From the NCBI GenBank assembly GCA_964473825.1, contig CAYYQL010000010.1:1-64000 (forward strand): a stretch of DNA of 64,000 nt, given 5' to 3'. A model generated the notes under the pieces. It did no database searches. It was not told the origin of the DNA and worked only from the letters and a program-made list of their open reading frames with translations. A program made the position numbers and the translations under genes. Shown piece after piece: positions 1 through 22,105 of this stretch (positions within the stretch are counted from its first letter, which is position 1; each line of letters begins with the position of its first letter). The DNA is from an uncultured archaeon. GTDB taxonomy: Archaea > Asgardarchaeota > Thorarchaeia > Thorarchaeales > Thorarchaeaceae.

Positions 1-1337
1 CAAGCTGCACCGACCTGCAGAGAATCTATCTCTGGGGGAACCGGTTGCAGGAGCTAGACCTCAGCCCCCTGGCTAGTTGCACCAGCTTGCAGGAACTCGA
101 TCTTCGTAAGAACCAGTTGCAGGAGCTGGACCTCAGCCCCCTCTCAAGCTGCACCGGCCTGCAGACACTCAATCTCTATGGGAACCAGTTGCAGGAGCTG
201 GATCTCAGCCCCCTGGCCAGCTGCACCAGCCTGCAGACACTCAATCTCAGTTATAACCAGTTGCGGGAGCTGGACCTCGGCCCGTTGAGCAGCTGCACCG
301 GCCTGCGGGAACTCTGGCTTATCGGGAACCAGTTGCAGGGTCTGGACTTCAGCCCCCTGGCCAGCTGCACCAGCCTGCAGACACTCAATCTCAGGTGGAA
401 CCGGTTGCAGGAGCTGGATCTCAGCCCCCTGGCCAGCTGCACCAGCCTGCAGACACTCAATCTCAGTTATAACCAGTTGCGGGAGCTGGACCTCGGCCCG
501 TTGAGCAGCTGCACCGGCCTGCGGGAACTCTGGCTTATCGGGAACCAGTTGCAGGGTCTGGACTTCAGCCCCCTGGCCAGCTGCACCAGCCTGCAGACAC
601 TCAATCTCAATTATAACCGGTTGCAGGAGCTGGACCTCGGCCCGTTGAGCAGCTGCACCGGCCTGCGGGAACTCTGGCTTATCGGGAACCAGTTGCAGGG
701 TCTGGACCTCAGCCCCCTCTCAAGCTGCGCCGGCCTGCAGACACTCAATCTCAATTATAACCAGTTGCGGGAGCTGGACCTGAGCCCCCTGAGCAGCTGC
801 ACCAGCCTGCAGGAACTCGATCTTCGTAAGAACCAGTTGCAGGAGCTGGACCTTAGTCCCCTGGCCAGCTGCACCAGCCTGCAGGAACTCGACCTTCGTA
901 AGAACCAGTTGCAGAAGCTGGATCTGAGCCCGTTGAGCAGCTGCACCAGCCTGCAGACACTCAATCTCAATTATAACCGGTTGCAGGAGCTGGATCTGAG
1001 CCCGTTGAGCAGCTGCACCAGCCTGCAGACACTCAATCTCTATGGGAACCAGTTGCAGGAGCTGGATCTGAGCCCGTTGAGCAGCTGCACCAGCCTGCAG
1101 GAACTCGACCTTCGTAAGAACCAGTTGCAGGAGCTGGACCTCAGCCCCCTCGCCAGCTGCACCGACCTACAGAAAATCTATCTCTGGGCGGACCAGTTGC
1201 AGGAGCTGGACCTTAGTCCCCTGGCCAGCTGCACCAGCCTGCAGACACTCAATCTCTTTGGGAACAGGGAATTGCAGGAGCTGGACCTCAACCCCCTCTT
1301 AGGCTGCACCAGCCTGCAGTACCTCCGTCTCTATGAT
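1..1337 (+). repeat. 72-bp tandem repeat array encoding the LRR units
   Basis: Period of 72 nt from position 45. Units 3-5 and 6-8 form a near-identical 216-bp higher-order repeat. Confidence 0.95.
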
Positions 1338-2309
1338 ATTTCTGGTGTTATGCTCCTTTCTCGCGAGGCCATAATGAGTCAGAACCCCTTGCTGGCGATA
1401 GGCCGAGAGATCAGATATGATCGTCCTCTACACATCGACGGTCTGAAACATCTCAGGTTTCTCTCCCATCTCGTTCATGAACTCGAACCAGACACATGGA
1501 AGGGCATTCATCTGAATCAGGGGCTTCTCACGGCGCTAGACCTGGACGAACTCCCCCTGCTGGACATCACTAACGAGGAGCGGGCCTCCATCCTGGGTGA
1601 AACAGACAGCGACTCGATGCGAGAGAGAATCATCGACGCTGTCTGTAGACAGATAGACGAGGGCGGAACCACTATCGGCATGGATGCACAACGAACAGTA
1701 TTGATCCATGGTAATGTCGCTGTGCGAATGAACAGGCTCCTCGAGTTACGAAAGCACGAGCTGCAGGATTTGAGATTGAGCCTGTGTGTTCACACCGGTG
1801 ATAGGATGATTGCGGATCAGTTACGAAAGCACGAGCTGCAAGATTTTAGATTGAGCCTCAAGGTTACAGACCCGAGGTTCTCACCTGAGTGGTTATACGG
1901 CGTGGGGCCAAAGATTCGGGAAAGGCTTGCAAGAAAGGGGTATTCGTCGGTTCATGACTTGGCAACGGCTGATCCCTCAACCCTTGCAAGAGAGGTGAGG
2001 GGGCTCGGCAAGAAATGCGCCGGGCAGGTGATAGAGCGCGCGAGAAGTCTTTGGGGAGTTGACCTCCGCCCCCTCTGGCTCACCGCCTATGGCCATCAGA
2101 TCCTCTCGACCACGGGTCTTGGACTCTCCTGTTCAGTGGAACAGTTCAAGCAGGTAAAGGAGGCCCTGGGAGAACTGGGGTTCGAGATTGAGACGACCGA
2201 TTCCTCCGAACCTGTGTATCCCCCCACGAAGATCTCGCAGCAGCTGAAGGAGTACATCTGGTTCATGGCGGACTACAACAGGAAGACAGCCGAGTCCTCA
2301 GGTCCATGA
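3..2309 (+). CDS. Leucine-rich repeat protein (5' truncated by the window edge) with an inserted helix-hairpin-helix module
   Basis: Frame is open from position 3 (SCTDLQRIYLWGNR...). At least 18 LRR units of 24 aa (LQELDLSPLxSCTxLxxLxLxxNx). HhH-like segment LYGVGPKIRERLARKGYSSVHDLATADPSTLAREVRGLGKK near the C-terminus. Confidence 0.9.
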   Translation, partial: SCTDLQRIYLWGNRLQELDLSPLASCTSLQELDLRKNQLQELDLSPLSSCTGLQTLNLYGNQLQELDLSPLASCTSLQTLNLSYNQLRELDLGPLSSCTGLRELWLIGNQLQGLDFSPLASCTSLQTLNLRWNRLQELDLSPLASCTSLQTLNLSYNQLRELDLGPLSSCTGLRELWLIGNQLQGLDFSPLASCTSLQTLNLNYNRLQELDLGPLSSCTGLRELWLIGNQLQGLDLSPLSSCAGLQTLNLNYNQLRELDLSPLSSCTSLQELDLRKNQLQELDLSPLASCTSLQELDLRKNQLQKLDLSPLSSCTSLQTLNLNYNRLQELDLSPLSSCTSLQTLNLYGNQLQELDLSPLSSCTSLQELDLRKNQLQELDLSPLASCTDLQKIYLWADQLQELDLSPLASCTSLQTLNLFGNRELQELDLNPLLGCTSLQYLRLYDISGVMLLSREAIMSQNPLLAIGREIRYDRPLHIDGLKHLRFLSHLVHELEPDTWKGIHLNQGLLTALDLDELPLLDITNEERASILGETDSDSMRERIIDAVCRQIDEGGTTIGMDAQRTVLIHGNVAVRMNRLLELRKHELQDLRLSLCVHTGDRMIADQLRKHELQDFRLSLKVTDPRFSPEWLYGVGPKIRERLARKGYSSVHDLATADPSTLAREVRGLGKKCAGQVIERARSLWGVDLRPLWLTAYGHQILSTTGLGLSCSVEQFKQVKEALGELGFEIETTDSSEPVYPPTKISQQLKEYIWFMADYNRKTAESSGP
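1744..1858 (+). repeat. 40-bp direct repeat (1744-1783 / 1819-1858, 38/40 identical)
   Basis: agttacgaaagcacgagctgca(g/a)gattt(g/t)agattgagcct occurs twice, immediately before the HhH insert. Confidence 0.9.
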
Positions 2310-2327: not shown

Positions 2328-2442
2328 TCACAGCGAAGCATCTATAAGACAAATCCCCGCAGACTCGGAACGGGGCCGTAGTCTAGCATGGTCTCTGGAG
2401 GTCTCCCCTTCAGGGCTGTACATAAGGCACCAGCCTGCGGTA
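2328..2442 (+). repeat. Left copy of a 115-bp direct repeat (tRNA promoter + 5' half of tRNA-Arg); att-like
   Basis: 110/115 identical to 8058-8172. All mismatches lie in the leader (2) or intron 1 (3). Confidence 0.92.
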
Positions 2443-2482
2443 GACTCTAAATGTCTGCAGAGAGTTGGTAATCGCCCGAATC
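2372..2482 (+). pseudogene. tRNA-Arg(GCG) pseudogene with two BHB introns; T-arm and 3' acceptor strand are decayed
   Basis: 5' exon identical to 8102ff. Intron 1 at 2392-2421. A different intron 2 at 2441-2462 still forms a perfect BHB. GTTGG closes the anticodon stem, followed by GCCCG-AATC with no TTCG and no 3' acceptor strand. Confidence 0.8.
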
Positions 2483-2527
2483 AGCCATCCTAATACCGAG
2501 AAGACTGGTGAACCGATATGAACGAAT

Positions 2528-3355
2528 CTAGAGTTGAGCCTGATCCTGAAGACTACGGTAGACACGTACAATGTAGTCGCGGATTGATGCTATCCGCGAA
2601 TTAATTAGATCATAGTCCTCGTTACTATAGACCCAATCAGTGCTTTCTCTGACCTGAAGTCTGAGTCCATCAGACAGCTTTCTCTGCAGTCGGTAGTAGA
2701 TGTCATGTATAGTTCTGTAGGACGGGCCAAGCAACTTCCTTAGGAATTCCCTTTTCGTCTGAGGGTGAATTTCGTCCAGCAGGATGAGTTTCTCGATGTA
2801 ATAGTACGTTCCCAAGATGCTCATCAGGTCTATACATATCCCGCTGAAATGCGTGTGAGAATCCAGATTTGAAACACATCGGTTGAACTTATCAATCAAC
2901 TGTCCGGAAATTCTGATTACCCTACTGTAGTCAGGAGGAACGCACATCTCTCGGAAATCTCCACAGATGGCTTTTCCCATTCTGAGGCGAGTCCACATAG
3001 TGAAGTATTCTTGGTCTTTCAGATTCTCTTTCATACTCGAATCGCTTAGAAAAGAAATATCAATGAGGGTGCGTTCGCCTCTTCTATGAGTCGGTCTAAG
3101 CTTCTGGACCAGTTTCTCCGTGCGATCTCTTCTCTGGTCTTCTACGACAAAAACGAGGTCGATGTCACTGTGTAAATCGTTCTCTTGAACTGCCCACGAT
3201 CCTGTCAGGATTATGGCCTCAGTAAGCAGACATGCCTTATCTAGAAGCACTCTAAGCTTGCCAGTTACATCCTCGGGCAGTCTTCCAGAATTCAGAATGC
3301 CATCAATGTATTTCCGGGTTCTCAATGCTTTTTCTCCCTGCTCTGCTAGCTTCAA
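2528..3355 (-). CDS. Pol-beta-type nucleotidyltransferase (MNT-like) with a helical C-terminal domain
   Basis: IILTGSWA...SDIDLVFVV (hGS...DxD) motif, with a later DI acidic residue. Confidence 0.75.
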   Translation of the reverse strand: MKLAEQGEKALRTRKYIDGILNSGRLPEDVTGKLRVLLDKACLLTEAIILTGSWAVQENDLHSDIDLVFVVEDQRRDRTEKLVQKLRPTHRRGERTLIDISFLSDSSMKENLKDQEYFTMWTRLRMGKAICGDFREMCVPPDYSRVIRISGQLIDKFNRCVSNLDSHTHFSGICIDLMSILGTYYYIEKLILLDEIHPQTKREFLRKLLGPSYRTIHDIYYRLQRKLSDGLRLQVRESTDWVYSNEDYDLINSRIASIRDYIVRVYRSLQDQAQL

Positions 3356-3455
3356 TCTTGGCTTCAGATGTTTACGGGAAATAGGTTTTCTCCCGATTGC
3401 TACAAAGATTAAATAGGAAGAAAGAAGAGTAAATATCTAAGGAATTGTTAGGACT

Positions 3456-5306
3456 ATGGATTGCAGAATATGCGCAATCCGGGGAGTGCTTTCGGTCCTG
3501 AACAGGGGAAAGATTCTCGGGAATGTGTCTAGCACTAATAACAAGAGGCGACTCTGGACAGTTTCTTTCAGCTTGCTGATTCTGGTCGGAATCGTGACGT
3601 CTAATGTGGATTCGGGTTCCATAGACAGCAGGCTTATTGGCCAAGCCCGTAGCATTGGCATCGAGGTGGATTCAGAAGAATTCCGTGCAGTTCACAAAGC
3701 TTGGAAAATCGTGGAGCCGGGCGGAAACACTGTTCTGGTATCAGTAGGCAGGATAGACACTAGATGGGTTGTCGAATTTGAGAAGAATATGAAATATCGA
3801 ATTCAAATCGAGCTTCGGAGCGGAAGCCACGAGATGATATTTCTCAGTGATGAATCTAAGCGGCCAAGAGGAGATGAGTCTTGGGATGTAACAGCTGAAC
3901 AAGCGATTATGATAACGCAGAGATTCCTTGAAAAGCTAGCTCTCAACGGCTATTCTGATGTTTCCGATAGAGTACTCGGTAGTGTACGGAATGAACGAAA
4001 CTGCTGGCGGATTGGATTTTTGCATCGCATCGGGGAACACAACGTCAAGAATGACTTCATTTCTGTCCGTGTGAATCCAGTGACTGGGGCGATCTGTTCC
4101 TTTGCCGCCAGTTGGGGACGGCCAGACATGACGCACCATACGATATTGGATGAAAGAGAAATGCTTGCAGTATTTGATTCTATTTTCGAAACGAACCATG
4201 ATTTTGAACCCACGTTAGAGATAGGTCTTGTGTCCGCTGATTTTGGTGGTGAGGGAAGACTTCTCCGCAATGCATGGGTTGTTGCCGCGATAGCAGGCGG
4301 AGTATGTGTGGAGTATTGGTTCGATGCAGCGAATGGAGCCTTGATTGGCTCTAACCAGACACTCGGAGGCAGCTTTGGTTCAGCCTATTGTGGAGGCACA
4401 GCGATAGGATATGGATCGCCTGACATCTCGTGGCAGATAGCAAATGAGGTACATGATAGACTCAGAACAGACAACTATGATTCGGAGCTTGATTACTATG
4501 TAACCCCGACGGATCTTGATTTTGCCTTCAATTATGATGAGGTCGTCCTTTTTGTAGGGCACTGCGATCACTCAGGATACCCGCTGCTAAGCCAATACCT
4601 TGTCACGAGCTATGGTTTCTACGGGTCCGAACACCTGCCGATGTATATCAATTCTAAACTGTTCTTTGCTTGTGCCTGCGGCAGTGCACTTAGCGAGTCT
4701 TGGTTTGGAAATTCGCTTCCGGAACGTGCATTGCTAGCAGGTCTTGACTGCTATTGTGGCTGGGTAATTGATATCAATGTGGAACTCGCAAAGGAGTTTG
4801 TGAAGTTCTTCTTCGACAAGGCTGTATTGGGCGAAACCTTCTATGACTGCAAGGATTATGCAGTCGCGAAGACCTCTGTTATCCCCTCGGATTTCTCAGT
4901 CCTTGGTGATGGGAATGCTCATCTTGAAGTGTGGGATATTACACCAAGCTTCTGCTATGATAGCCAGAAGTACGACCACGATGTCGGACAGTCTGGTTGG
5001 GCTTGGTATATCAATGATGAACCGCTCTGGTGTGGGGATATTGATGCTCTGAAACATAATGAAGACATAAGTCACAACATTGAGCTCATGGTTACGCCCA
5101 GTGATGAGATGTATGTGAATGTGAAAGTCTACTACTGGTTTTCCGACTACAAGTGGCTCTTGTACGCGGAAAGAACCAGCACGAGCCCAAGGGATTCCAT
5201 CAGTATGACGTGGGGTTCGGGCCCAAAAGAGTATCTAATAGTCATCAGCAGCACCTCAAGCCCGCATGGAGGATACTACGACTTGGACTTCTGGTGCCAA
5301 TCCTAG
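3456..5306 (+). CDS. Secreted or membrane-anchored protein: PepSY/YcdB-like repeats plus a caspase/gingipain-fold peptidase-like domain
   Basis: N-terminal hydrophobic segment; VRVNPVTGAI and YWFDAANGAL PepSY-type motifs; VVLFVGH and FFACACGS His/Cys dyad. Confidence 0.6.
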   Translation: MDCRICAIRGVLSVLNRGKILGNVSSTNNKRRLWTVSFSLLILVGIVTSNVDSGSIDSRLIGQARSIGIEVDSEEFRAVHKAWKIVEPGGNTVLVSVGRIDTRWVVEFEKNMKYRIQIELRSGSHEMIFLSDESKRPRGDESWDVTAEQAIMITQRFLEKLALNGYSDVSDRVLGSVRNERNCWRIGFLHRIGEHNVKNDFISVRVNPVTGAICSFAASWGRPDMTHHTILDEREMLAVFDSIFETNHDFEPTLEIGLVSADFGGEGRLLRNAWVVAAIAGGVCVEYWFDAANGALIGSNQTLGGSFGSAYCGGTAIGYGSPDISWQIANEVHDRLRTDNYDSELDYYVTPTDLDFAFNYDEVVLFVGHCDHSGYPLLSQYLVTSYGFYGSEHLPMYINSKLFFACACGSALSESWFGNSLPERALLAGLDCYCGWVIDINVELAKEFVKFFFDKAVLGETFYDCKDYAVAKTSVIPSDFSVLGDGNAHLEVWDITPSFCYDSQKYDHDVGQSGWAWYINDEPLWCGDIDALKHNEDISHNIELMVTPSDEMYVNVKVYYWFSDYKWLLYAERTSTSPRDSISMTWGSGPKEYLIVISSTSSPHGGYYDLDFWCQS

Positions 5307-5406
5307 AATGAGGTCTAGTCGGAAGAATAAGAGAAGAAGGAGTACTGCGGCGAGAAACGTACACAGAGCGAAAGACTGCCAGTCATGTGAAGTCTAGGCT
5401 GCCAAG

Positions 5407-6585
5407 TCAGTCTTGCGCAACGTCCCTTCTCGGTAAGAGCTGATACCGAGCAATCCGCCGGCCAACAAGAGCGAGAAGGAGGGCTACGCCAAACAGATAG
5501 GCGATTCTGGCATATGGAGAATACAGCAGGATATCTTGGCTCCCACCCAAGAGTGGAACGGCCTCGAGGATGACACCTGTATTGGCATCGACCACGTATC
5601 TTGTCCCCCACGTTGTGACAAGCGTCAACTCGTATGCCAGTGTCATCTCGAAAGCGGTTTCGCTGGGATTGACTGCCCTTGTCCTCAGCTCGAGTATCGA
5701 ATCGACGATGTTTCCCATGGAAGGGTCTGGAAGGCTCTCCAAGACTCTATTCCGTGCCGCTTCATCACTGATTATGCCCTGAAGTGAAACCGATCGAATG
5801 TCAATCCATCTGTAGGTGAATGATCTTACTAGCCCCGTGTCTGATTGAACTTCGACGCAGATATATCCCCATGGAATGTGTACCCCCTGAACGAACTGAC
5901 GAAAGCTAATATAATGAGTAGACGAGTAACTCTTGCTTTCCCATGGCACATTCCATGGAATCTCAGAGTAGAAGGCATCGGGCGGAAGAGTGTAGTTCTG
6001 CAGGAGAAGAAAATCCTTGGCAATCATCTCTGCTTCACTCTTGTTCAACGGAGAATCTCGATGGAACCCTGCAGACTCCAATGCTGAACTGCCAGTACTA
6101 AGGTAAGCATCAACAACAGTCCCAGTAACGGCATTGACAAAGATAGTTGCACGAAACGAATCCGAAACCAGTGTTAGTCCCCAGCGGGGCCAGAAGTAGT
6201 CTAGGATGATTTGTGGTGCGCCCGGCCACAAGTATTCATGAGGAAGTGCCACTCGAAGTCCCGTTGTGAGATTCTCTGGCAAATACCGCGATACGAACTT
6301 CATCGATGTATTCACAGCCTCTCCCTCCGAGACCTGAATATCCTTCGAGTAGTTCCCGATTATCTTGAACACCGGGCTTTCCTCTGTCTGATACGTTGCT
6401 GGATACACAGCCGGATCTCTCTCCTCCAGCACCAGTGATGCGAAAACAGTCTGATTCACCGGCGTATAGACCTCCCCTCGAAAGGCAAACCCCTCCATGT
6501 CTACTTGGGCGTAGGCTATTGAAACCGCTGAAGGGAGGAGCAATGCTGCGATAACAAGCGACACTCCATATACGTTCCGTTTCAT
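5407..6585 (-). CDS. Exported protein with PepSY/YcdB-like repeats and a C-terminal TM anchor
   Basis: Signal peptide; IFVNAVTGTV, VEVQSDTGLV and YVVDANTGVI repeats; C-terminal TM followed by RRIAR. Confidence 0.7.
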   Translation of the reverse strand: MKRNVYGVSLVIAALLLPSAVSIAYAQVDMEGFAFRGEVYTPVNQTVFASLVLEERDPAVYPATYQTEESPVFKIIGNYSKDIQVSEGEAVNTSMKFVSRYLPENLTTGLRVALPHEYLWPGAPQIILDYFWPRWGLTLVSDSFRATIFVNAVTGTVVDAYLSTGSSALESAGFHRDSPLNKSEAEMIAKDFLLLQNYTLPPDAFYSEIPWNVPWESKSYSSTHYISFRQFVQGVHIPWGYICVEVQSDTGLVRSFTYRWIDIRSVSLQGIISDEAARNRVLESLPDPSMGNIVDSILELRTRAVNPSETAFEMTLAYELTLVTTWGTRYVVDANTGVILEAVPLLGGSQDILLYSPYARIAYLFGVALLLALVGRRIARYQLLPRRDVAQD

Positions 6586-6655
6586 CTCTAAGACCCATCA
6601 GTTACATGCTCAATGACTACTATAATCCTATGTTTAGTAGGGTCGTGTACTAAAA

Positions 6656-7108
6656 CTAGAAGGGTTGGTGTTTCCACGTTCTGATGGTTTCAAACCAAGA
6701 AGAGATGGCTCCGAAGGCCAACACAGCGTAGCAGATGATGAGGATGGGACTGGGGTAGATGGGAAAGAGAATCGGCATCAGCAGCAGACAGGATGTGTAG
6801 AAGAGCGCGTAGAAAAGGTATCGTGGGAAGATGAGATGGCCAACACTGGCAAAGAACTTCAGGAGGCCAGCACTCACCTCCCGCGATATATGATGCATTC
6901 CATCCCTATCAGTTCGCACGAGACCGATGTCCTTGAGCTTGTCGATGTGATAGATCGCGAGGCTGGGACTTGAAAATCCAAGTGCTCGTTGCACCTCGCG
7001 ACCACTACAAGGGCCCGGATGACTCAGAAGCCACCAATACACACTCAGAGTCTTTCCCCGCAGGGCAGACTCGATCTCTTCCTGAAACACTAATTCCTCT
7101 TCATCCAA
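6656..7108 (-). CDS. Membrane-tethered winged-helix transcription regulator (wHTH + 2 TM)
   Basis: REVQRALGFSSPSLAIYHIDKLKDIGLV ArsR-like wHTH followed by two hydrophobic helices. Confidence 0.8.
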   Translation of the reverse strand: MDEEELVFQEEIESALRGKTLSVYWWLLSHPGPCSGREVQRALGFSSPSLAIYHIDKLKDIGLVRTDRDGMHHISREVSAGLLKFFASVGHLIFPRYLFYALFYTSCLLLMPILFPIYPSPILIICYAVLAFGAISSWFETIRTWKHQPF

Positions 7109-7347
7109 TCAGACCAACCACCACTCGATTCTGTAACGACCACTGTGTATTGGGGTGGTCATCCCCGAAATCCCGGTTCACGCACCTTTCGATCATGAAT
7201 TACATGCATACGCCATTGCGGTCAACGGTCATGATGCACCTCTGACTAGTTAGAATGAAGACGTTCAGGCCTAAAAAGACCCCCGTTCATTCTCATTTGG
7301 ATGCTTTATAACACTCCATCCGCTACCATAGGGTGGTGACCACCCCC

Positions 7348-7560
7348 ATGACGCTACTCAACTCGGAGACCGAACGGCGCGCCTGCGAGGTCGCCGAGAA
7401 GTTCGCCCGCTACCTCAACAGCCACTCTGGCAGGAACGTTCTCCAGAACCTGGACGAGGGTGAGAGCTTCATCCTCCAGACCGTCGAGGCCACCATGCGC
7501 GTGACCAAGGTGGGTGGGCGGCCGAGGTCGTTCTCCTCCACTAGACTGCGACCGTTCTGA
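7348..7560 (+). CDS. Small hypothetical protein
   Basis: GC3-rich codons; upstream TATA-like ctttataa. The 3' end may be frameshifted. Confidence 0.45.
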   Translation: MTLLNSETERRACEVAEKFARYLNSHSGRNVLQNLDEGESFILQTVEATMRVTKVGGRPRSFSSTRLRPF

Positions 7561-7595
7561 ATCACGCAGTCTTACCGGTACCCCGAGGGGTTTCC

Positions 7596-7979
7596 CTACT
7601 CCTCCATATTCTCCTCGATGCGCGCCCTGATTAGCTTCTCAAGGAGCGAGCGCTGGAGTGGTCGGGCCGGAGTGAAGTGTATCGTGGCATCCGTAGTGCC
7701 ATACGCAACCAGGTCGGCCCTGTGTTCCTCCAGGACGGACGGACTCATGACGTGGAAACTCAGGTGGTTCTTGGCTGCCGAGAACGCCACCAGCGGTTTC
7801 CCTCTGTACTTGATGGTCGGAATCCTGTAATTGATGGTTTCGACAGCATCCGGCACGATAGATCTGATGTTCTGACGAAGATTCCTCAGCACAATCTGCG
7901 ATTCCTCCGAGAGCGTGGCTAGATACTCGTCCACGTTCGTCGGACCGGGGATACCTTTGGGTGAAGCTTCATCGTTCAT
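7596..7979 (-). CDS. DUF1801/YdhG-like protein
   Basis: VDEYL...LRQNIRSIVPDAVETINYRIP...AFSAAKNHLSFH family pattern. Confidence 0.8.
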   Translation of the reverse strand: MNDEASPKGIPGPTNVDEYLATLSEESQIVLRNLRQNIRSIVPDAVETINYRIPTIKYRGKPLVAFSAAKNHLSFHVMSPSVLEEHRADLVAYGTTDATIHFTPARPLQRSLLEKLIRARIEENMEE

Positions 7980-8062
7980 GGCATTGAGATATACACCGGT
8001 CGGAGTTAACTATTGTGATTCAGGCCAACAGAAGCGAGGAATGTAAGACAGCGGGGGTCACA

Positions 8063-8080
8063 GCGAAGCATCTATAAGAC
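8063..8080 (+). promoter_or_regulatory. Archaeal BRE/TATA promoter of tRNA-Arg (duplicated at 2333-2350)
   Basis: gcgaagca-tctataag about 30 nt upstream of the mature 5' end. Confidence 0.6.
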
Positions 8081-8101
8081 AAATCCCCGCAGAATCGAAA
8101 C

Positions 8102-8228
8102 GGGGCCGTAGTCTAGCATGGTCTCTGGAGGTCTTCCCCCCAGGGCTGTACATAAGGCACCAGCCTGCGGTAAGCTTTCGCTTGTAGTTAGCTGGGGTTC
8201 CCCCGTTCGAATCGGGGCGGTCCCGCCA
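8102..8228 (+). tRNA. tRNA-Arg(GCG) with two introns (8122-8151 in the D-loop at 19/20; 8171-8189 canonical 37/38) and encoded CCA
   Basis: Acceptor GGGGCCG/CGGTCCC; D-stem GTCT/AGGC; anticodon stem CCAGC/GCTGG with GCG at 8167-8169; T-arm CCCCG-TTCGAAT-CGGGG; discriminator G, then CCA. Strict BHB at intron 2, relaxed BHB at intron 1. Splicing restores A20, the Arg identity base. Confidence 0.92.
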
Positions 8229-8570
8229 TCTGTTTTCTCAGTGTATCCTGATGACCGTGTTCATTGCTACTGATGCTCTCGATAGATGACAAGTCGCGGC
8301 CCGGGGCGTGATTCATTGTAGACATCTGTCCAATTGCCATACTGAAGGGGAACTCATAACCGCCGTTCCTACCACTTCGGCACCTATTGGCGCTCAATAG
8401 TAATAACAGGGACTCTTTCGCGGTTAAGACTTGGAGAGGGCTTAGCATAACCGATTTTGGTGTCCGACCTACATCTTATCTCTTCTCTCGCGAATGCTGT
8501 TGTGAATGAGAAACGGGGCAGGCGGGCACCTCGGCTCCTGTCTTCCCCGGTACAGGAGGTATAGGTATAC

Positions 8571-11500
8571 ATGTTGAAAGCACGAGGCGCGTCAAAACGA
8601 GTCGAGAGTCTGGCAAGAGCACGGTTCTTCTCCGGATTGCTCCCGACGGCTGCTATGGGCATTGCAGTAGGCCTTCTGGGCCTTGCACCCGCCCTCTGGG
8701 ATACGTCTGTCATGACCGGACTCTTTCGGTTGTCTGGCAAGTGGGTATCTGGAGCACATCTCATGAGGCCTATCATGCCGAGATACACGCTCCTAACGGC
8801 TCTGCTGTTTCTGTCAACCTTGATGTTTGAAAGCAGCTTTGAACTAGTTCTGGATTCTCTGGTCGCATTCCAGCAAGTTCTTGCATCTGTGGCGGTGGGA
8901 ACTGGATTCGTGTTCTTCCCATTCTACGTACACAGCAAGCATTCGATTCTGGCGGCTTCGAAGAACACCACAGAAAGGAGCATACTCCAACGAGTTGGCA
9001 AGGCACTTGCATCTCTCATCGGGCGAAGCAAGAAGGTATTTGGAGGTGTGGAGGTGACGCAGATACCCAGCACGTACATGACGGACGGTGACACAAGGGA
9101 GGAGGCGATCCATCGTGCCGAGATGTTCTATCAGATAATCAGGGCTGTGCGGATGAGCGGTATCCCATTCGGATTCATGTTGAAGCGGAGCATAGGGAAA
9201 CTCCGTCTCATCTATCTCACCTATGCTGAGGACACATCCGAACTACGAAACAGAGTCTGGAAGCTTCAGAACATACTGTCAAGTTCTCTCAAGGGGTTTA
9301 CTCTGACAACGCACAACGAGTTTGTCATTGAAGAGCAAAATCCACGAGATGCTGAGGTCACTGCCTACCTCGACGGTCCGCTTGCTCCCATCCAGGTCGG
9401 CCAAGAGGCGGCCGATGGACTGACCATTGCTATCGGATACCTCAGAAGCATTGGGGCAGGATCCATCCAAGTCTTGATTGAGCCAGCGCGTCCGTCACGG
9501 TGGAAACTCAATGGTCTGAAACGGGACTTTGAGTACGCGACAGGCCGCGCATCAAGGACGGTCTCGCATACGGGTGGCGGCATCCTTCGACAGAACAATC
9601 ACGAATCCGTTACCTTCACAGACATTGATGCATCCAACGAGGCGAGAGACCTGGCCATGCAGATAAGGCGCCAAGAGGCAACTGATGCCTGTAAGGCGTC
9701 GATCTCTGTGACATGTGAGGGATATACCCGTAGTGTTGCAGAGCAGTGTGCAAAGGATATACTGGCGGCAATCATGGGGCGCGTTCGACCCTCCTCTGAT
9801 CGCACTGGACTGTCAATCAAGACCAAGAAGAGTAACAACACTCTCAGGGCACTGACAAATGGCAGGCAACCTCCCAATTGGACCCTCATGGTTCCTGAGG
9901 AGATTGTTCCTGTTATGGTCATCCCACCCATTGATCTCGGCCTTGAGGTGGTCAATCGTGCACGATTCGTAACAGGCAAGACTCAGTCTGGCGAGCACCC
10001 ACCAGCGGAGACCCCGCGGCGCAGAAGCACACCCCCTCAACGGACAGGCAAGTTCAGTCTGGGCTCGGAGCTTGATGAGTCAGGGGCTAAGGTGGGACCC
10101 GTTCACTTCGCGCTTGAAGACATGGTTCGCCATGTGGAGGTATTCGGTGATACTGGGAGCGGTAAGACGTCCACTGTCAAGCGAATACTCAGTTCTGTTC
10201 ACGAGTCCAAGATACCGTTTCTTGTCTTGACCCCCACCCTAACTGATGACTATGTTTCTCTTGCCCGCGAGATCCCCTCATTGCGCTTCTTCACTCCCGG
10301 CGATGAGCGGACGGCTCCGCTACGGTTCAACCCTCATGAATTCTCGGAGGGAGTGTTGGTGAATACCATCCTAGCTGATGTCAAGGCGGCCTACATCGCC
10401 TCTGCACCAAGTATTGGAATCGTGAGGGAGTACACGGAGATGTGCATAGACAATAGTTTCGAACGATGTCAGTATGACCGTAATCACAACGCTCACGGAC
10501 ATGCCGTCCTTATGTCTGACCTCCTTGATTCCGTCGCTCACCTCGAACGTGATGTTCTTGAATACAGTGACAGGCAGAACCAAGACCTCATTGGTGCACT
10601 CCGGGGCAGATTCCGGTCGTTAATGAGTGGCCCACTCTACCGGGTATTCAACACGTTGACTGGCATGACTGTTGAGGAACTGGTCTCGGTTCCAACCGTC
10701 ATAGCATTGGATGGTCTAAGCGCAGATGAGCGGGCACTCTTTGCTTCACTCCTCGTCGTCAATGTGGCTCGGTACTTCCAGGCAAAAGCTCTGGAGATGA
10801 CAGCGGCGAAACCTCTGCGATTCCTGCTCGTATTGGAGGAGGCACATCACTTTCTTGTTCGAACTGGTGAGCGATCGGTGGATGAGGAGCACGCAGCCCG
10901 AAGCCATGCCATCCGTTCCATTGTGGAGGTACTGCGCGAGTCGCGTCGTAATGGTTTGGGGGTTGTGATCTTAGATCAACTTCCCTCCAGTCTTGACGAA
11001 CACGCCATGAGCCTTCCGGTCACCACCATCTTACATCGTCTGTCTACAGGTGTAGACCGGAGAACGATAGCGATGAAACTTGACCTCAACGAGGAGCAGC
11101 TGAAGATGGTCGGTTCTCTCCCTGTGGGACATGCTATTGCCAAGTTCGCAGGTGATGGGCAACCCATGTACATTTCGGTGCATCCTCCTCCAAAGAGAGC
11201 ACCCGTCGGGGCAGGGACGAAAACCAGTCTGAGAGACTGGGTACGAGAGCGCATGACGCAGGTCTACAAGGAGCACCCGGCAATCAGTGCAGGGCTCAGC
11301 AATCCCTTCGTGTTTCTTGAGGCCTCGGAATCCCCCACCGGTGCATCAGTCGAGATTGACCTCAGAGTAGCATGGAATGTAGTGGGTTTTGCTCGTTCCG
11401 ATTTTCTCGTAAACAACTACATGGCTTTCCTCAGAAGGGAGAAAATAATACTGTTGACCAAGCTAGCCGAACTGCTCTGGATTGTTCTTGAACGCATTAC

Positions 11501-15531: not shown

Positions 15532-16122
15532 ATGAGTAAGATGCTGGAAAAAGATGTCACAATTCTCATGGATTTGCTAGATACGTGTGACCAGACAGGG
15601 TTGCCTCTTGAGGACCTGGAAGAAGCTCTGGAGGACCGGATTGAATCTCACGACGACCTGAAAGAACCAGGTCTGGCAAATCAGGCAATCCGGCATGCCC
15701 TAGATAACTGGCTCATTGATAAGACCATTGACTATCGTCGCAACAAGAGCGGTGAAGAGGTTGGAGCACTCATCTGGTTCTGCCGAAAACTCACACAGGA
15801 CGAATCTGAGAAACTGAGGCGACTATCTGAAATCGAGAAAGAAACGATACGGATTCTGAGAGCACAGGAAACCGAGGAAGGGCTTGGAACGATGCGGGAG
15901 AGAGATCTTCTGGAGTATCTCAGAGCCAAAGGATTCGAAACGGACTTTGCTCCGTCGATTGAGGACTATGTATCGGATTATTTCAAAACGGAAGACGGTG
16001 AGAACGTCGAGTGGATCTATCTGGTTCCCCAGTTTGAGCTGACCGAGGAATACAAGCAAGGTATGAGAGAGCTTGATGAGATGTCTTTGCAGAAGGAGCT
16101 TAGGCGCGAGCGGGAAGGGTGA
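15532..16122 (+). CDS. Acidic tandem winged-helix-like protein, paralog 1
   Basis: Shares ALDNWLIDKTIDY and KGFET..PxFELTE motifs with 16239-16817 and 20450-20666. Confidence 0.75.
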   Translation: MSKMLEKDVTILMDLLDTCDQTGLPLEDLEEALEDRIESHDDLKEPGLANQAIRHALDNWLIDKTIDYRRNKSGEEVGALIWFCRKLTQDESEKLRRLSEIEKETIRILRAQETEEGLGTMRERDLLEYLRAKGFETDFAPSIEDYVSDYFKTEDGENVEWIYLVPQFELTEEYKQGMRELDEMSLQKELRREREG

Positions 16123-16238
16123 CTCAGCCCGTTGTTCAGGTCTCCATGCTTCATGCAGTAGGGTGTCCTCGCGGAAGGCACCGGAGTCACCATTCTGATG
16201 ATTCTATGGTGTTCAAATCCAAGGGAGAGGAATCAATC

Positions 16239-16817
16239 GTGAGAAGGATGTTTGATAGATTAATCTTGCTTCTTTTGGAGATACTGCGCGAGGCCGGACC
16301 TCAGGGACTGCCAGTTGAAGACGTAAGAGCCCTGCTTGAGAAGAGAATCGACTATCAAGATGCGGGTTCACCTGACCAAGTTATCGAGTATGCCTTAGAC
16401 AATTGGCTCATTGACAAGACAATCGATTATTGCCGTGACACCAGGGGCGTAGAGGTTGGAGAGTTGCGCTGGTTCTTGCGTGCACTCAGTGAAGAAGAGT
16501 CTGAGGAATTGAAGCAGTTGCCTGATATCAAGAAGCAAATCATAAGAATCCTTAGGCGTCAGGAGACCGAGCGGGGATTGGGGATGATAAGAGCCGAGGA
16601 GCTCTTGGAAAAACTGCGAAACAAAGGATTCGAAACTCAGTATGTCCCAATCGCTGATATTCGTGTTTCTGATGTCTTCAAGGCTGAAGAAGGCAAACTT
16701 GTGAAATGGATCCGCCTGATTCCCGAGTTCGAGCTCACTGAGGACTTCAAACAGACTATGAAAGAGCTTGAGGATATGTCACTAAGAAAGGACATCCGAC
16801 GCGAACGAACATATTGA
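16239..16817 (+). CDS. Acidic tandem winged-helix-like protein, paralog 2
   Basis: GTG start with upstream GGGAGAGG aligns with the paralog 1 N-terminus (MRRMFDRL vs MSKMLEKD). Confidence 0.75.
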   Translation: MRRMFDRLILLLLEILREAGPQGLPVEDVRALLEKRIDYQDAGSPDQVIEYALDNWLIDKTIDYCRDTRGVEVGELRWFLRALSEEESEELKQLPDIKKQIIRILRRQETERGLGMIRAEELLEKLRNKGFETQYVPIADIRVSDVFKAEEGKLVKWIRLIPEFELTEDFKQTMKELEDMSLRKDIRRERTY

Positions 16818-18357: not shown

Positions 18358-18381
18358 TTCAAATCGGGGCGATTCAGCAAT
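18358..18381 (+). repeat. Degenerate copy of the tRNA-Arg 3' end (relict att site)
   Basis: ttcaaatcggggcgattcagcaat vs ttcgaatcggggcggtcccgccat (8206-8229): 19/24 identical; intergenic. Confidence 0.55.
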
Positions 18382-18530
18382 TTATACCTCACCGCACCTT
18401 GCAGCATAGGATGCCTAAGAGTTGCACCGATCTGCAATGAAAAATGGCAGGAAGACTGATTCAACTTAGGACTCGATAAGTCCGCCACCCATCCCACACA
18501 AATAAAGAAATCCGCAAATCTCAGTTCTAA

Positions 18531-20413: not shown

Positions 20414-20455
20414 GTTTCTGGAGCCAAAGACGCTCCAGAAACCTCCTTTTCTTTT
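20414..20455 (+). terminator. Perfect 11-bp hairpin plus pyrimidine tract
   Basis: GTTTCTGGAGC-caaagac-GCTCCAGAAAC, then ctccttttctttt. Confidence 0.55.
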
Positions 20456-20666
20456 GGAGCATCTGAGGACGAAAGGATTCGAAACGGACTTCGCTCCGAC
20501 GATAGGGGACTATGTGTCTGACTATTTCACCACGGAGGATGGCGAGAACGTCGAGTGGATCTATCTACTTCCCCAATTCGAGCTTAATGGGGACTACAAG
20601 CAAATGAACGAAGAGATCGATGAAATGTCCCTTCGGAAGGAGCTTCGACGCGAGCGAGAAGGCTGA
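20450..20666 (+). pseudogene. 5'-truncated third paralog of the acidic winged-helix family
   Basis: LLEHLRTKGFETDFAPTIGDYVSDYF...KELRREREG closely matches the C-terminal third of 15532-16122. Confidence 0.85.
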
Positions 20667-20809
20667 GTGTAGGCCACCCCACTGAATACTCCTAAGACTG
20701 CTCTTGCTCTGATAATTGTACTGCATTCTCACTCAAGTCTGGCTGGTCATACTATACTTCTGCACGGCACGTGCTCTATTAGGGATTCTAGAAGCATCCT
20801 GGAGAATGA

Positions 20810-22078: not shown

Positions 22079-22105
22079 GCTCAAGTCTGGCCGGTCCCGC
22101 CATCT
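22079..22105 (+). repeat. attR-like copy of the tRNA-Arg 3' end
   Basis: 22/27 identical to 8205-8231, including 14 exact bases. Confidence 0.75.

What the first reader, a model, noticed from the sequence alone, without database searches (positions are those of the whole stretch)
2328..2489. Second tRNA-Arg copy: same promoter and 5' exon, a different but perfect anticodon intron, and a destroyed 3' end
Seen: identity to the real gene ends two bases into intron 2. The unrelated sequence beyond (tagactctaaatgtctgcagag) still builds a perfect BHB and closes the anticodon stem. The intron-1 differences keep or improve its stem. The tail GCCCG-AATC-A-GCCATC looks like the tRNA 3' end with two deletions. 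Inference: an att junction of an element whose attP carried a promoter-containing, intron-containing tRNA from another host, with crossover in the 5' half. That would defeat the proposed anti-integration role of tRNA introns. The copy could also be transcribed as a spliceable tRNA fragment or decoy.
Basis: partly seen in the sequence, partly recalled or inferred. Interest (0 to 1): 0.7.

Follow-up and report, generated by a model that had tools for sequence, protein, structure and literature searches.

The report
Broken second tRNA from congener recombination
This Asgard archaeon carries a working arginine tRNA gene and, 5.7 kb upstream, a broken second copy whose introns match the intact gene of a related species. 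It is most likely the scar of lopsided recombination between two neighbouring tRNA genes, not a mobile element's way around tRNA introns.

Summary
2328-2442 is 96% identical to 8058-8172 (promoter, 5' exons, D-loop intron of tRNA-Arg(GCG)), followed by a different 22-nt intron with a perfect BHB and a wrecked T-arm. The interpretation needs revising. The 22-nt intron is the genus' normal one: a congener's intact gene matches the copy at 95% over 148 nt, through both introns into the T-stem. So the junction lies at the T-arm, not in the 5' half. 5489-8058 lies upstream of the single gene in two congeners, so the interval is not a simple element. The repeated unit is small gene + promoter + tRNA of the ancestral Arg(CCG)-small gene-Arg(GCG) pair, in a tract exchanged between species. 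Similar damaged promoter-bearing copies occur at this locus in four other Thorarchaeota genomes, most without introns. Best reading: unequal recombination between two lineages' haplotypes at the shared tRNA-Arg 3' ends, then loss of function. Which copy came in is unresolved. The att remnants lie 3' of both introns, so the anti-integration idea is not tested. Precedent: Caldiarchaeum tRNA-Thr; this scan noted a similar case in a thaumarchaeon.

The parts
2328..2371 (+). Promoter of the copy (BRE about 2334-2338, TATA-like box 2341-2348) and leader. Core identical to that of the working gene.
   Evidence: BRE/TATA assignment from archaeal promoter knowledge and conservation across the family
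2372..2391 (+). Copy, exon 1 (positions 1-19), unchanged
2392..2421 (+). Copy, D-loop intron (30 nt, relaxed BHB); loop allele shared with the intact L060 gene
2422..2440 (+). Copy, exon 2 with anticodon GCG, unchanged
2441..2462 (+). Copy, 37/38 intron (22 nt, perfect BHB); 21/22 identical to L060, homologous to G002
2463..2476 (+). Copy, start of 3' exon (anticodon stem, variable loop, first three T-stem bases) of the L060 type; end of homology
   Evidence: 95.3% over 2329-2476
2477..2490 (+). Damaged tRNA 3' end, the junction; resembles the decayed remnant at 18370
2528..7108 (.). Four-gene cassette: nucleotidyltransferase (-), 616-aa protein (+), PepSY-like protein (-), HTH protein (-). 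Same order in G029; only the last two genes in G002 and L060.
7266..7294 (+). Strongly decayed tRNA-3'-end-like stretch closing the cassette (tentative)
   Evidence: alignments
7348..7560 (+). Small gene copy B, with a 1-nt deletion near 7520 that changes its last residues. Copy A lies intact on contig C96, directly after tRNA-Arg(CCG).
8058..8228 (+). Working tRNA-Arg(GCG) with promoter: exons 8102-8121, 8152-8170, 8190-8228; introns 30 nt and 19 nt. G002-type 3' exon, with an intron 2 found in no other genome examined.
18359..18383 (+). Decayed att-like remnant with the T-arm of the working gene
20733..20748 (+). Partial att-like remnant with the L060-type T-arm
22081..22105 (+). Intact att-like remnant before the core M24 peptidase gene. 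L060-type T-arm, identical to the 3' end of this genome's tRNA-Arg(CCG) and complementary to the copy's first T-stem bases.

Best explanation
The copy is a recently inactivated tRNA-Arg(GCG) gene at the junction of a tandem duplication. In this family tRNA-Arg(CCG) and tRNA-Arg(GCG) lie in direct orientation about 0.45 kb apart around a small gene, and they share their 3' ends (shown). DNA of two lineages of the genus recombined out of register: the GCG gene of one haplotype was joined at its T-arm to the DNA that follows the CCG gene in the other (inferred from gene order). The product is CCG - small gene A - ZnF - LRR - copy - four-gene cassette - small gene B - DUF1801 - working GCG (shown). 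Being redundant, the upstream gene lost its 3' end, at the junction or soon after, and small gene B took a frameshift (sequence shown, order inferred). The perfect intron and promoter are inherited from a gene that worked until recently. Whether RecA/RadA-type recombination or an integrase acting in trans made the join is not known. Which haplotype was resident is unresolved: I put about 50:35 on the copy being the displaced resident rather than the import.
For: Intact congener gene matches the copy through both introns, 95.3% over 148 nt. Ancestral order CopG-CCG-small-GCG-core genes in a dozen family genomes. C96 joins C10 by a 54-nt exact overlap and carries CCG plus a second small gene, 11% from copy B. 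The DNA after the copy is what follows CCG in G002 and L060. Fourfold-site distances collapse from 0.21/0.55/0.55 in core genes (n=1921) to 0.34/0.39/0.38 in the tract (n=327; chi-square p about 3e-20). G082 has a GCG-promoter/CCG-flank hybrid plus a 95.8%/120-nt damaged copy, and G074 has a damaged GCG copy before the small gene. There are no changes in 39 exon bases or in the promoter core of the copy, unlike an old pseudogene.
Against: Only three lineages of the genus could be compared and the exact donor was not found. The island is a mosaic, so the direction is ambiguous: CopG is closest to L060, and att remnants do not always track the resident gene. The tail may come from a separate, older att remnant (shared changes with 18370, post hoc p about 0.009 and 0.004), which would add a step. 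The links 2328-2413 and 6783-8143 rest on the one assembly.
Confidence: 0.68

Rival explanations
1. One reading: an element integrated by crossover in the 5' half, so the copy is host promoter and 5' exon fused to a foreign intron 2 and a degenerate 3' end, and 2443-8057 is the element.
For: Near-identical promoter-bearing direct repeats flank the interval. The interval contains a mobile four-gene cassette. A similar layout was described in Caldiarchaeum (PMC3293823).
Against: The copy matches L060 on both sides of the supposed crossover. 5489-8058, including a family-core small gene, is present in single-copy congeners. No tyrosine integrase match at the locus. DNA upstream of the copy is not the DNA upstream of the gene in the congeners.
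Confidence: 0.07
2. Old duplication within this lineage, before the working gene acquired its G002-type 3' exon and 19-nt intron; the copy preserves the ancestral allele.
For: The copy's variable loop and T-stem start resemble the outgroup L056 and the family consensus. Small gene A is slightly closer to B (11%) than to G002 or L060 (13-14%).
Against: It needs independent loss in G002, and survival of about 60 constrained bases without a change across a branch where fourfold sites differ by 0.2 between G000 and G002. It does not explain the collapse of the species tree in the tract.
Confidence: 0.1
3. The copy is kept as a functional RNA: a transcribed, spliceable anticodon-arm decoy, an antisense RNA to the downstream nucleotidyltransferase gene, or half of a trans-spliced tRNA.
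For: Promoter core, exons and both BHB motifs are intact, and differences from L060 fall in unpaired or leader positions. Transcription would run antisense into the gene ending at 2528.
Against: Recent inactivation explains the same pattern. The copy was not found in G002 or L060. The damaged copies of other genomes break in different ways. No pairing leader or BHB links the tail to the 3' remnants (cofolds), and positions 52-54 are in neither piece.
Confidence: 0.08
4. Assembly chimera of two co-occurring strains or species.
For: The genome is a 103-contig bin with 4.4% contamination. The Logan contig stops at 6783 for no reason visible in this genome.
Against: The longest exact match between the copies is 36 nt, below the 54-nt contig overlap. 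2413-6783 and 12224-33351 are reproduced at 100% by Logan contigs. The bin has one CopG/CCG locus. Natural analogues exist.
Confidence: 0.06

Closest known systems
Caldiarchaeum subterraneum tRNA-Thr(GGU) locus (Sugahara et al. 2012, PMC3293823)
   Same: A 5' tRNA piece with its upstream sequence lies upstream of an intact gene with a different intron set. The authors invoke recombination with DNA carrying an intron-containing tRNA sequence.
   Different: There the insertion encodes a putative recombinase, the piece stops at position 27 and the variation is among strains. Here the piece runs to position 51 with both introns, no integrase match lies at the locus, the interval includes core genes, and the two alleles match different species.
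att remnants of elements integrated at archaeal tRNA 3' ends (SSV1 at tRNA-Arg, pNOB8 type; as summarised in PMC3293823)
   Same: Short T-loop-to-3'-end repeats bound cargo modules downstream of the working gene (18359, 20733, 22081).
   Different: The flagged copy duplicates promoter and 5' part rather than the 3' end, does not restore a tRNA, and has no integrase beside it.
Unequal crossing-over between tandem paralogous genes, followed by reciprocal pseudogenisation (general knowledge, not cited)
   Same: Direct repeats (CCG and GCG genes), duplicated interval, hybrid middle copy, one copy of each duplicated gene damaged.
   Different: The two partners carry species-level different alleles, so exchange between lineages is involved.
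Split or trans-spliced archaeal tRNAs (Nanoarchaeum, Caldivirga; own knowledge)
   Same: A promoter-bearing 5' piece, and 3' pieces elsewhere.
   Different: No complementary leaders or BHB at the break, bases missing from both pieces, and an intact gene is present.

Membership tests
Archaeal BHB tRNA intron at 37/38 | 4-bp central helix between two 3-nt bulges, flanked by outer helix and anticodon stem | tested here: met
   (4/4, 4/4, 5/5; 0 of 200,000 shuffles)
Archaeal BHB tRNA intron at 37/38 | Excision by EndA in vivo | not testable with these tools
Functional tRNA gene | Cloverleaf with T-arm, paired acceptor stem and discriminator/CCA end | tested here: not met
   spliced length 66 nt, no T-arm
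attL/attR of an integrated element (5'-crossover type) | DNA between the repeats absent from empty-site relatives | tested here: not met
   5489-8058 present in G002 and L060 with one gene; only 2477-5488 is absent there
attL/attR of an integrated element (5'-crossover type) | Each copy a host/element hybrid switching in the 5' half | tested here: not met
   copy groups with L060 from intron 1 to position 51
attL/attR of an integrated element (5'-crossover type) | Integrase encoded in or next to the element | tested here: not met
   only PF00589 match is on contig C1; no recombinase family among the 20 locus ORFs scanned against Pfam; other recombinase families were not searched genome-wide
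attL/attR of an integrated element (5'-crossover type) | Circular form with attP | not testable with these tools
   no reads; no match of the promoter-side or 3'-end patterns in viral contigs
Duplication by unequal recombination between paralogous tRNA genes | Direct-repeat paralogues flanking a duplicated interval | tested here: met
Duplication by unequal recombination between paralogous tRNA genes | Middle copy has the upstream flank of the 3' paralogue and the downstream flank of the 5' paralogue | tested here: met
   GCG promoter followed by the cassette that follows CCG in congeners; met at gene-order level, the exact junction bases are damaged; explicit hybrid in G082
Duplication by unequal recombination between paralogous tRNA genes | Parent haplotypes and direction identified | tested here: inconclusive
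Split or trans-spliced tRNA | Complementary leaders forming a BHB at the split, all exon bases present | tested here: not met

The most novel reading that the evidence does not exclude
The Arg(CCG)/Arg(GCG) pair is a standing exchange site through which whole intron-bearing tRNA genes move between Thorarchaeota species and displace the resident allele. Some apparent terminal gains or replacements of Asgard tRNA introns would then be horizontal swaps. The complete, compensated turnover of the T-stems of just these two tRNAs would reflect escape from, or overwriting by, elements that use their 3' ends.
Probability: 0.3. Interest if true: 0.6.

Novelty: new member of a known kind. Interest (0 to 1): 0.33.

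Why it matters
It is a traceable case of two species-level alleles of one two-intron tRNA gene side by side, with the intact counterpart of the broken one found in a congener. A 2026 census found no general route by which Asgard tRNA introns arrive; a word search of its text found no mention of horizontal transfer, recombination or gene conversion (10.64898/2026.10.13.758758). This locus suggests that route for the spread or replacement of intron alleles, though not for their origin. It does not bear on the idea that introns protect against integration, because the att-like sequences lie 3' of both introns.

Tried and rejected
Exact patterns for intron 1 and for the intron-2 junction found nothing in JGI metagenome contigs or viral contigs; the tool may withhold very close records. 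In GTDB contigs the junction pattern gave G002, one other Thorarchaeota genome (L056, unrelated 29-nt intron) and an Acidobacteriaceae contig that I did not examine. G001 lacks the locus in its assembly (87% complete). Neither intron 2 matches another place in this genome, so copying from another tRNA gene was rejected. My first idea, that the copy plus the 22081 remnant prove the copy is the split resident gene, was weakened: L060 and G001 carry remnants of the other T-arm type. The idea that block B is surely vertical because G002 and L060 share it was also weakened, since their PepSY and HTH genes are too close for the species tree. The nucleotidyltransferase showed no HEPN or toxin domain, so a decoy for a neighbouring tRNA-cleaving toxin has no support. 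Williams 2002 was not available. The sigma-70 promoter scan does not apply to archaea.

Full report
Observation. The window holds a two-intron tRNA-Arg(GCG) at 8102-8228 that ARAGORN and Rfam miss, and a 115-nt, 95.7% identical copy of its promoter and 5' part at 2328-2442. In the copy, intron 1 (2392-2421) keeps its stem. Intron 2 (2441-2462, 22 nt, against 19 nt in the working gene) forms a complete BHB and closes the anticodon stem, which no shuffle of 200,000 achieved. After three T-stem bases (2474-2476) the sequence degenerates, and the spliced product cannot fold as a tRNA. A Logan contig present in two samples reproduces 2413-6783 exactly. The longest exact match between the copies (36 nt) is shorter than the contig overlap seen in this assembly (54 nt), so a misjoin at this repeat is unlikely. 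No reads could be examined. Relatives name the host group as Thorarchaeota.

Where the other intron comes from. The sister species G002 has one intact gene, syntenic with the working copy, whose 37/38 intron is a 22-nt homologue of the copy's. A more distant congener (L060, a JGI contig) has an intact gene 95.3% identical to the copy over 148 nt. It shares the intron-1 loop allele, 21 of 22 bases of intron 2, and the anticodon-stem and T-stem start. In the shared 115 nt, three informative sites group the copy with L060 and none give another grouping. The 22-nt intron is therefore the normal one of this genus, and the 19-nt intron of the working gene is the odd one, either diverged or replaced. 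Most family members examined have no intron at this position. There is no switch of ancestry in the 5' half; the break is at the T-arm.

What is duplicated. In a dozen family genomes the order is CopG - tRNA-Arg(CCG) - small gene - tRNA-Arg(GCG), followed by M24 peptidase or the next core gene. The two tRNAs lie about 0.45 kb apart with near-identical 3' halves. In this genome contig C96 overlaps the start of the window by 54 exact bases and carries CopG, the CCG gene, a second small gene (A), a zinc-finger-like ORF and the start of the LRR gene. So the order is CCG - small A - ZnF - LRR - copy - nucleotidyltransferase - 616-aa protein - PepSY - HTH - small B - DUF1801 - working gene - HerA island - M24. 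G002 and L060 have CCG - PepSY - HTH - small - DUF1801 - GCG - HerA. The four genes after the copy form one cassette, found in the same order in G029 and truncated in G002 and L060. The copy thus has the promoter of a GCG gene and is followed by the DNA that follows the CCG gene in congeners. This is the expected middle product of out-of-register recombination between the two paralogues (inference). Small A is intact while small B has a 1-nt deletion near 7520; the reverse holds for the tRNAs.

Exchange between species. At fourfold sites, core genes give 0.21 (G000-G002), 0.55 and 0.55 (each to L060). The genes around the CCG tRNA give 0.34, 0.39 and 0.38, with a strongly shifted site pattern (p about 3e-20; sliding windows). 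Among about 25 syntenic tRNA pairs of G000 and G002 none changes its T-stem or swaps an intron, whereas the CCG T-stem differs completely with compensation. The locus is a mosaic, so direction is unsettled. For the copy as displaced resident: its T-arm type recurs in this genome's CCG gene and in the two outer remnants (20733, 22081), and small A keeps the ancestral position. For the copy as import: CopG and the CCG intron are closest to L060, and L060 and G001 show that remnants need not match the resident gene. The absence of any change in exons or promoter core argues that the copy worked until recently (inference). Its tail shares three derived changes and a 5-base flank with the decayed remnant at 18370 (post hoc p about 0.009 and 0.004), so it may be a piece of an older att site rather than the copy's own end.

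Recurrence. A pattern survey of 86 family genomes and inspection of flagged loci showed four similar cases. G082 has a GCG-promoter/CCG-flank hybrid and a 95.8%/120-nt copy with a broken acceptor stem. G074, of the same genus and perhaps the same event, has a damaged promoter-bearing copy. G008 has an anticodon-arm fragment 7.5 kb upstream of its intact gene. G009 has a promoter with a 20-nt stub followed by a foreign-type Arg(GCG) gene. The G082 and G074 genes have no introns, so introns are incidental to the process.

A junction with DNA of another lineage is supported. A 5'-half crossover, an element between the copies and a defeat of intron protection are not. No tyrosine integrase match lies at the locus, and all att-like remnants run from the T-loop to the 3' end, where introns at 19/20 and 37/38 cannot interfere. 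Transcription of the copy is plausible from its promoter and would run antisense into the nucleotidyltransferase gene, but a function is unsupported. Trans-splicing is excluded by the lack of pairing leaders.

Comparison and verdict. The closest published case is the Caldiarchaeum tRNA-Thr locus, where a promoter-side fragment lies 1.8 kb from an intact gene with a different intron set (PMC3293823). This scan noted a similar thaumarchaeal case (not tested here). The present case differs in lacking a recombinase and in that both alleles can be matched to intact genes of different congeners. That is of some use for the open question of how Asgard tRNA introns arrive (10.64898/2026.10.13.758758), but it shows spread or replacement, not origin. 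Verdict: a real feature, a new member of a known kind, interest 0.33.

Noticed in passing
window 8102-8228, contig C96 2116-2004, L060:7940 and 10755, L061:7933 and 10758: The T-stems of tRNA-Arg(CCG) and (GCG) differ completely, with compensation, among three congeners, while about 25 other tRNA pairs of G000/G002 keep theirs. Possible turnover of an att site.
   Followed up: partly
window 2528-7108; L125 (G029), L132 (G108), L127, L131: Nucleotidyltransferase + 616-aa protein + PepSY-like + HTH is a four-gene cassette that recurs in other Thorarchaeota genera. A distant pair sits in the islet behind tRNA-Arg(TCT) in G002.
   Followed up: partly
window 15532-16817, 20450-20666; contig C6 110956-111324; L085:1137-1790; L131:7616-8160: Genes of the acidic wHTH family are repeatedly followed within about 100 nt by a tRNA-Arg 3'-end remnant, at both the GCG and the TCT locus, with no integrase match nearby. 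They look like att-bounded cassettes moved in trans.
   Followed up: partly
L081:400-720 (G009): Promoter plus a 20-nt stub of the native tRNA-Arg(GCG), followed 180 nt later by a complete Arg(GCG) gene of a different sequence type with its own promoter: apparent replacement by a foreign gene.
   Followed up: no
L078 reverse strand 8250-8900 (G008): No tRNA-Arg(CCG) gene was detected between CopG and the small gene; a GCG anticodon-arm fragment follows the small gene.
   Followed up: no
L056:5564 and 6133: Both Arg genes carry the same D-loop intron (copied between paralogues) but different 29-nt anticodon introns.
   Followed up: no
window 1-54 and contig C96 1-54: Exact 54-nt overlap: C96 (reverse) continues into the window and supplies the start of the LRR gene.
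   Followed up: yes
window 7348-7560: Conserved 65-70 aa gene that sits between the two Arg tRNA genes in nearly all family genomes examined; no Pfam hit on record, function not examined.
   Followed up: no
window 1744-1858: 40-nt repeat (95%) inside the C-terminal part of the LRR gene, just before a helix-hairpin-helix domain.
   Followed up: no
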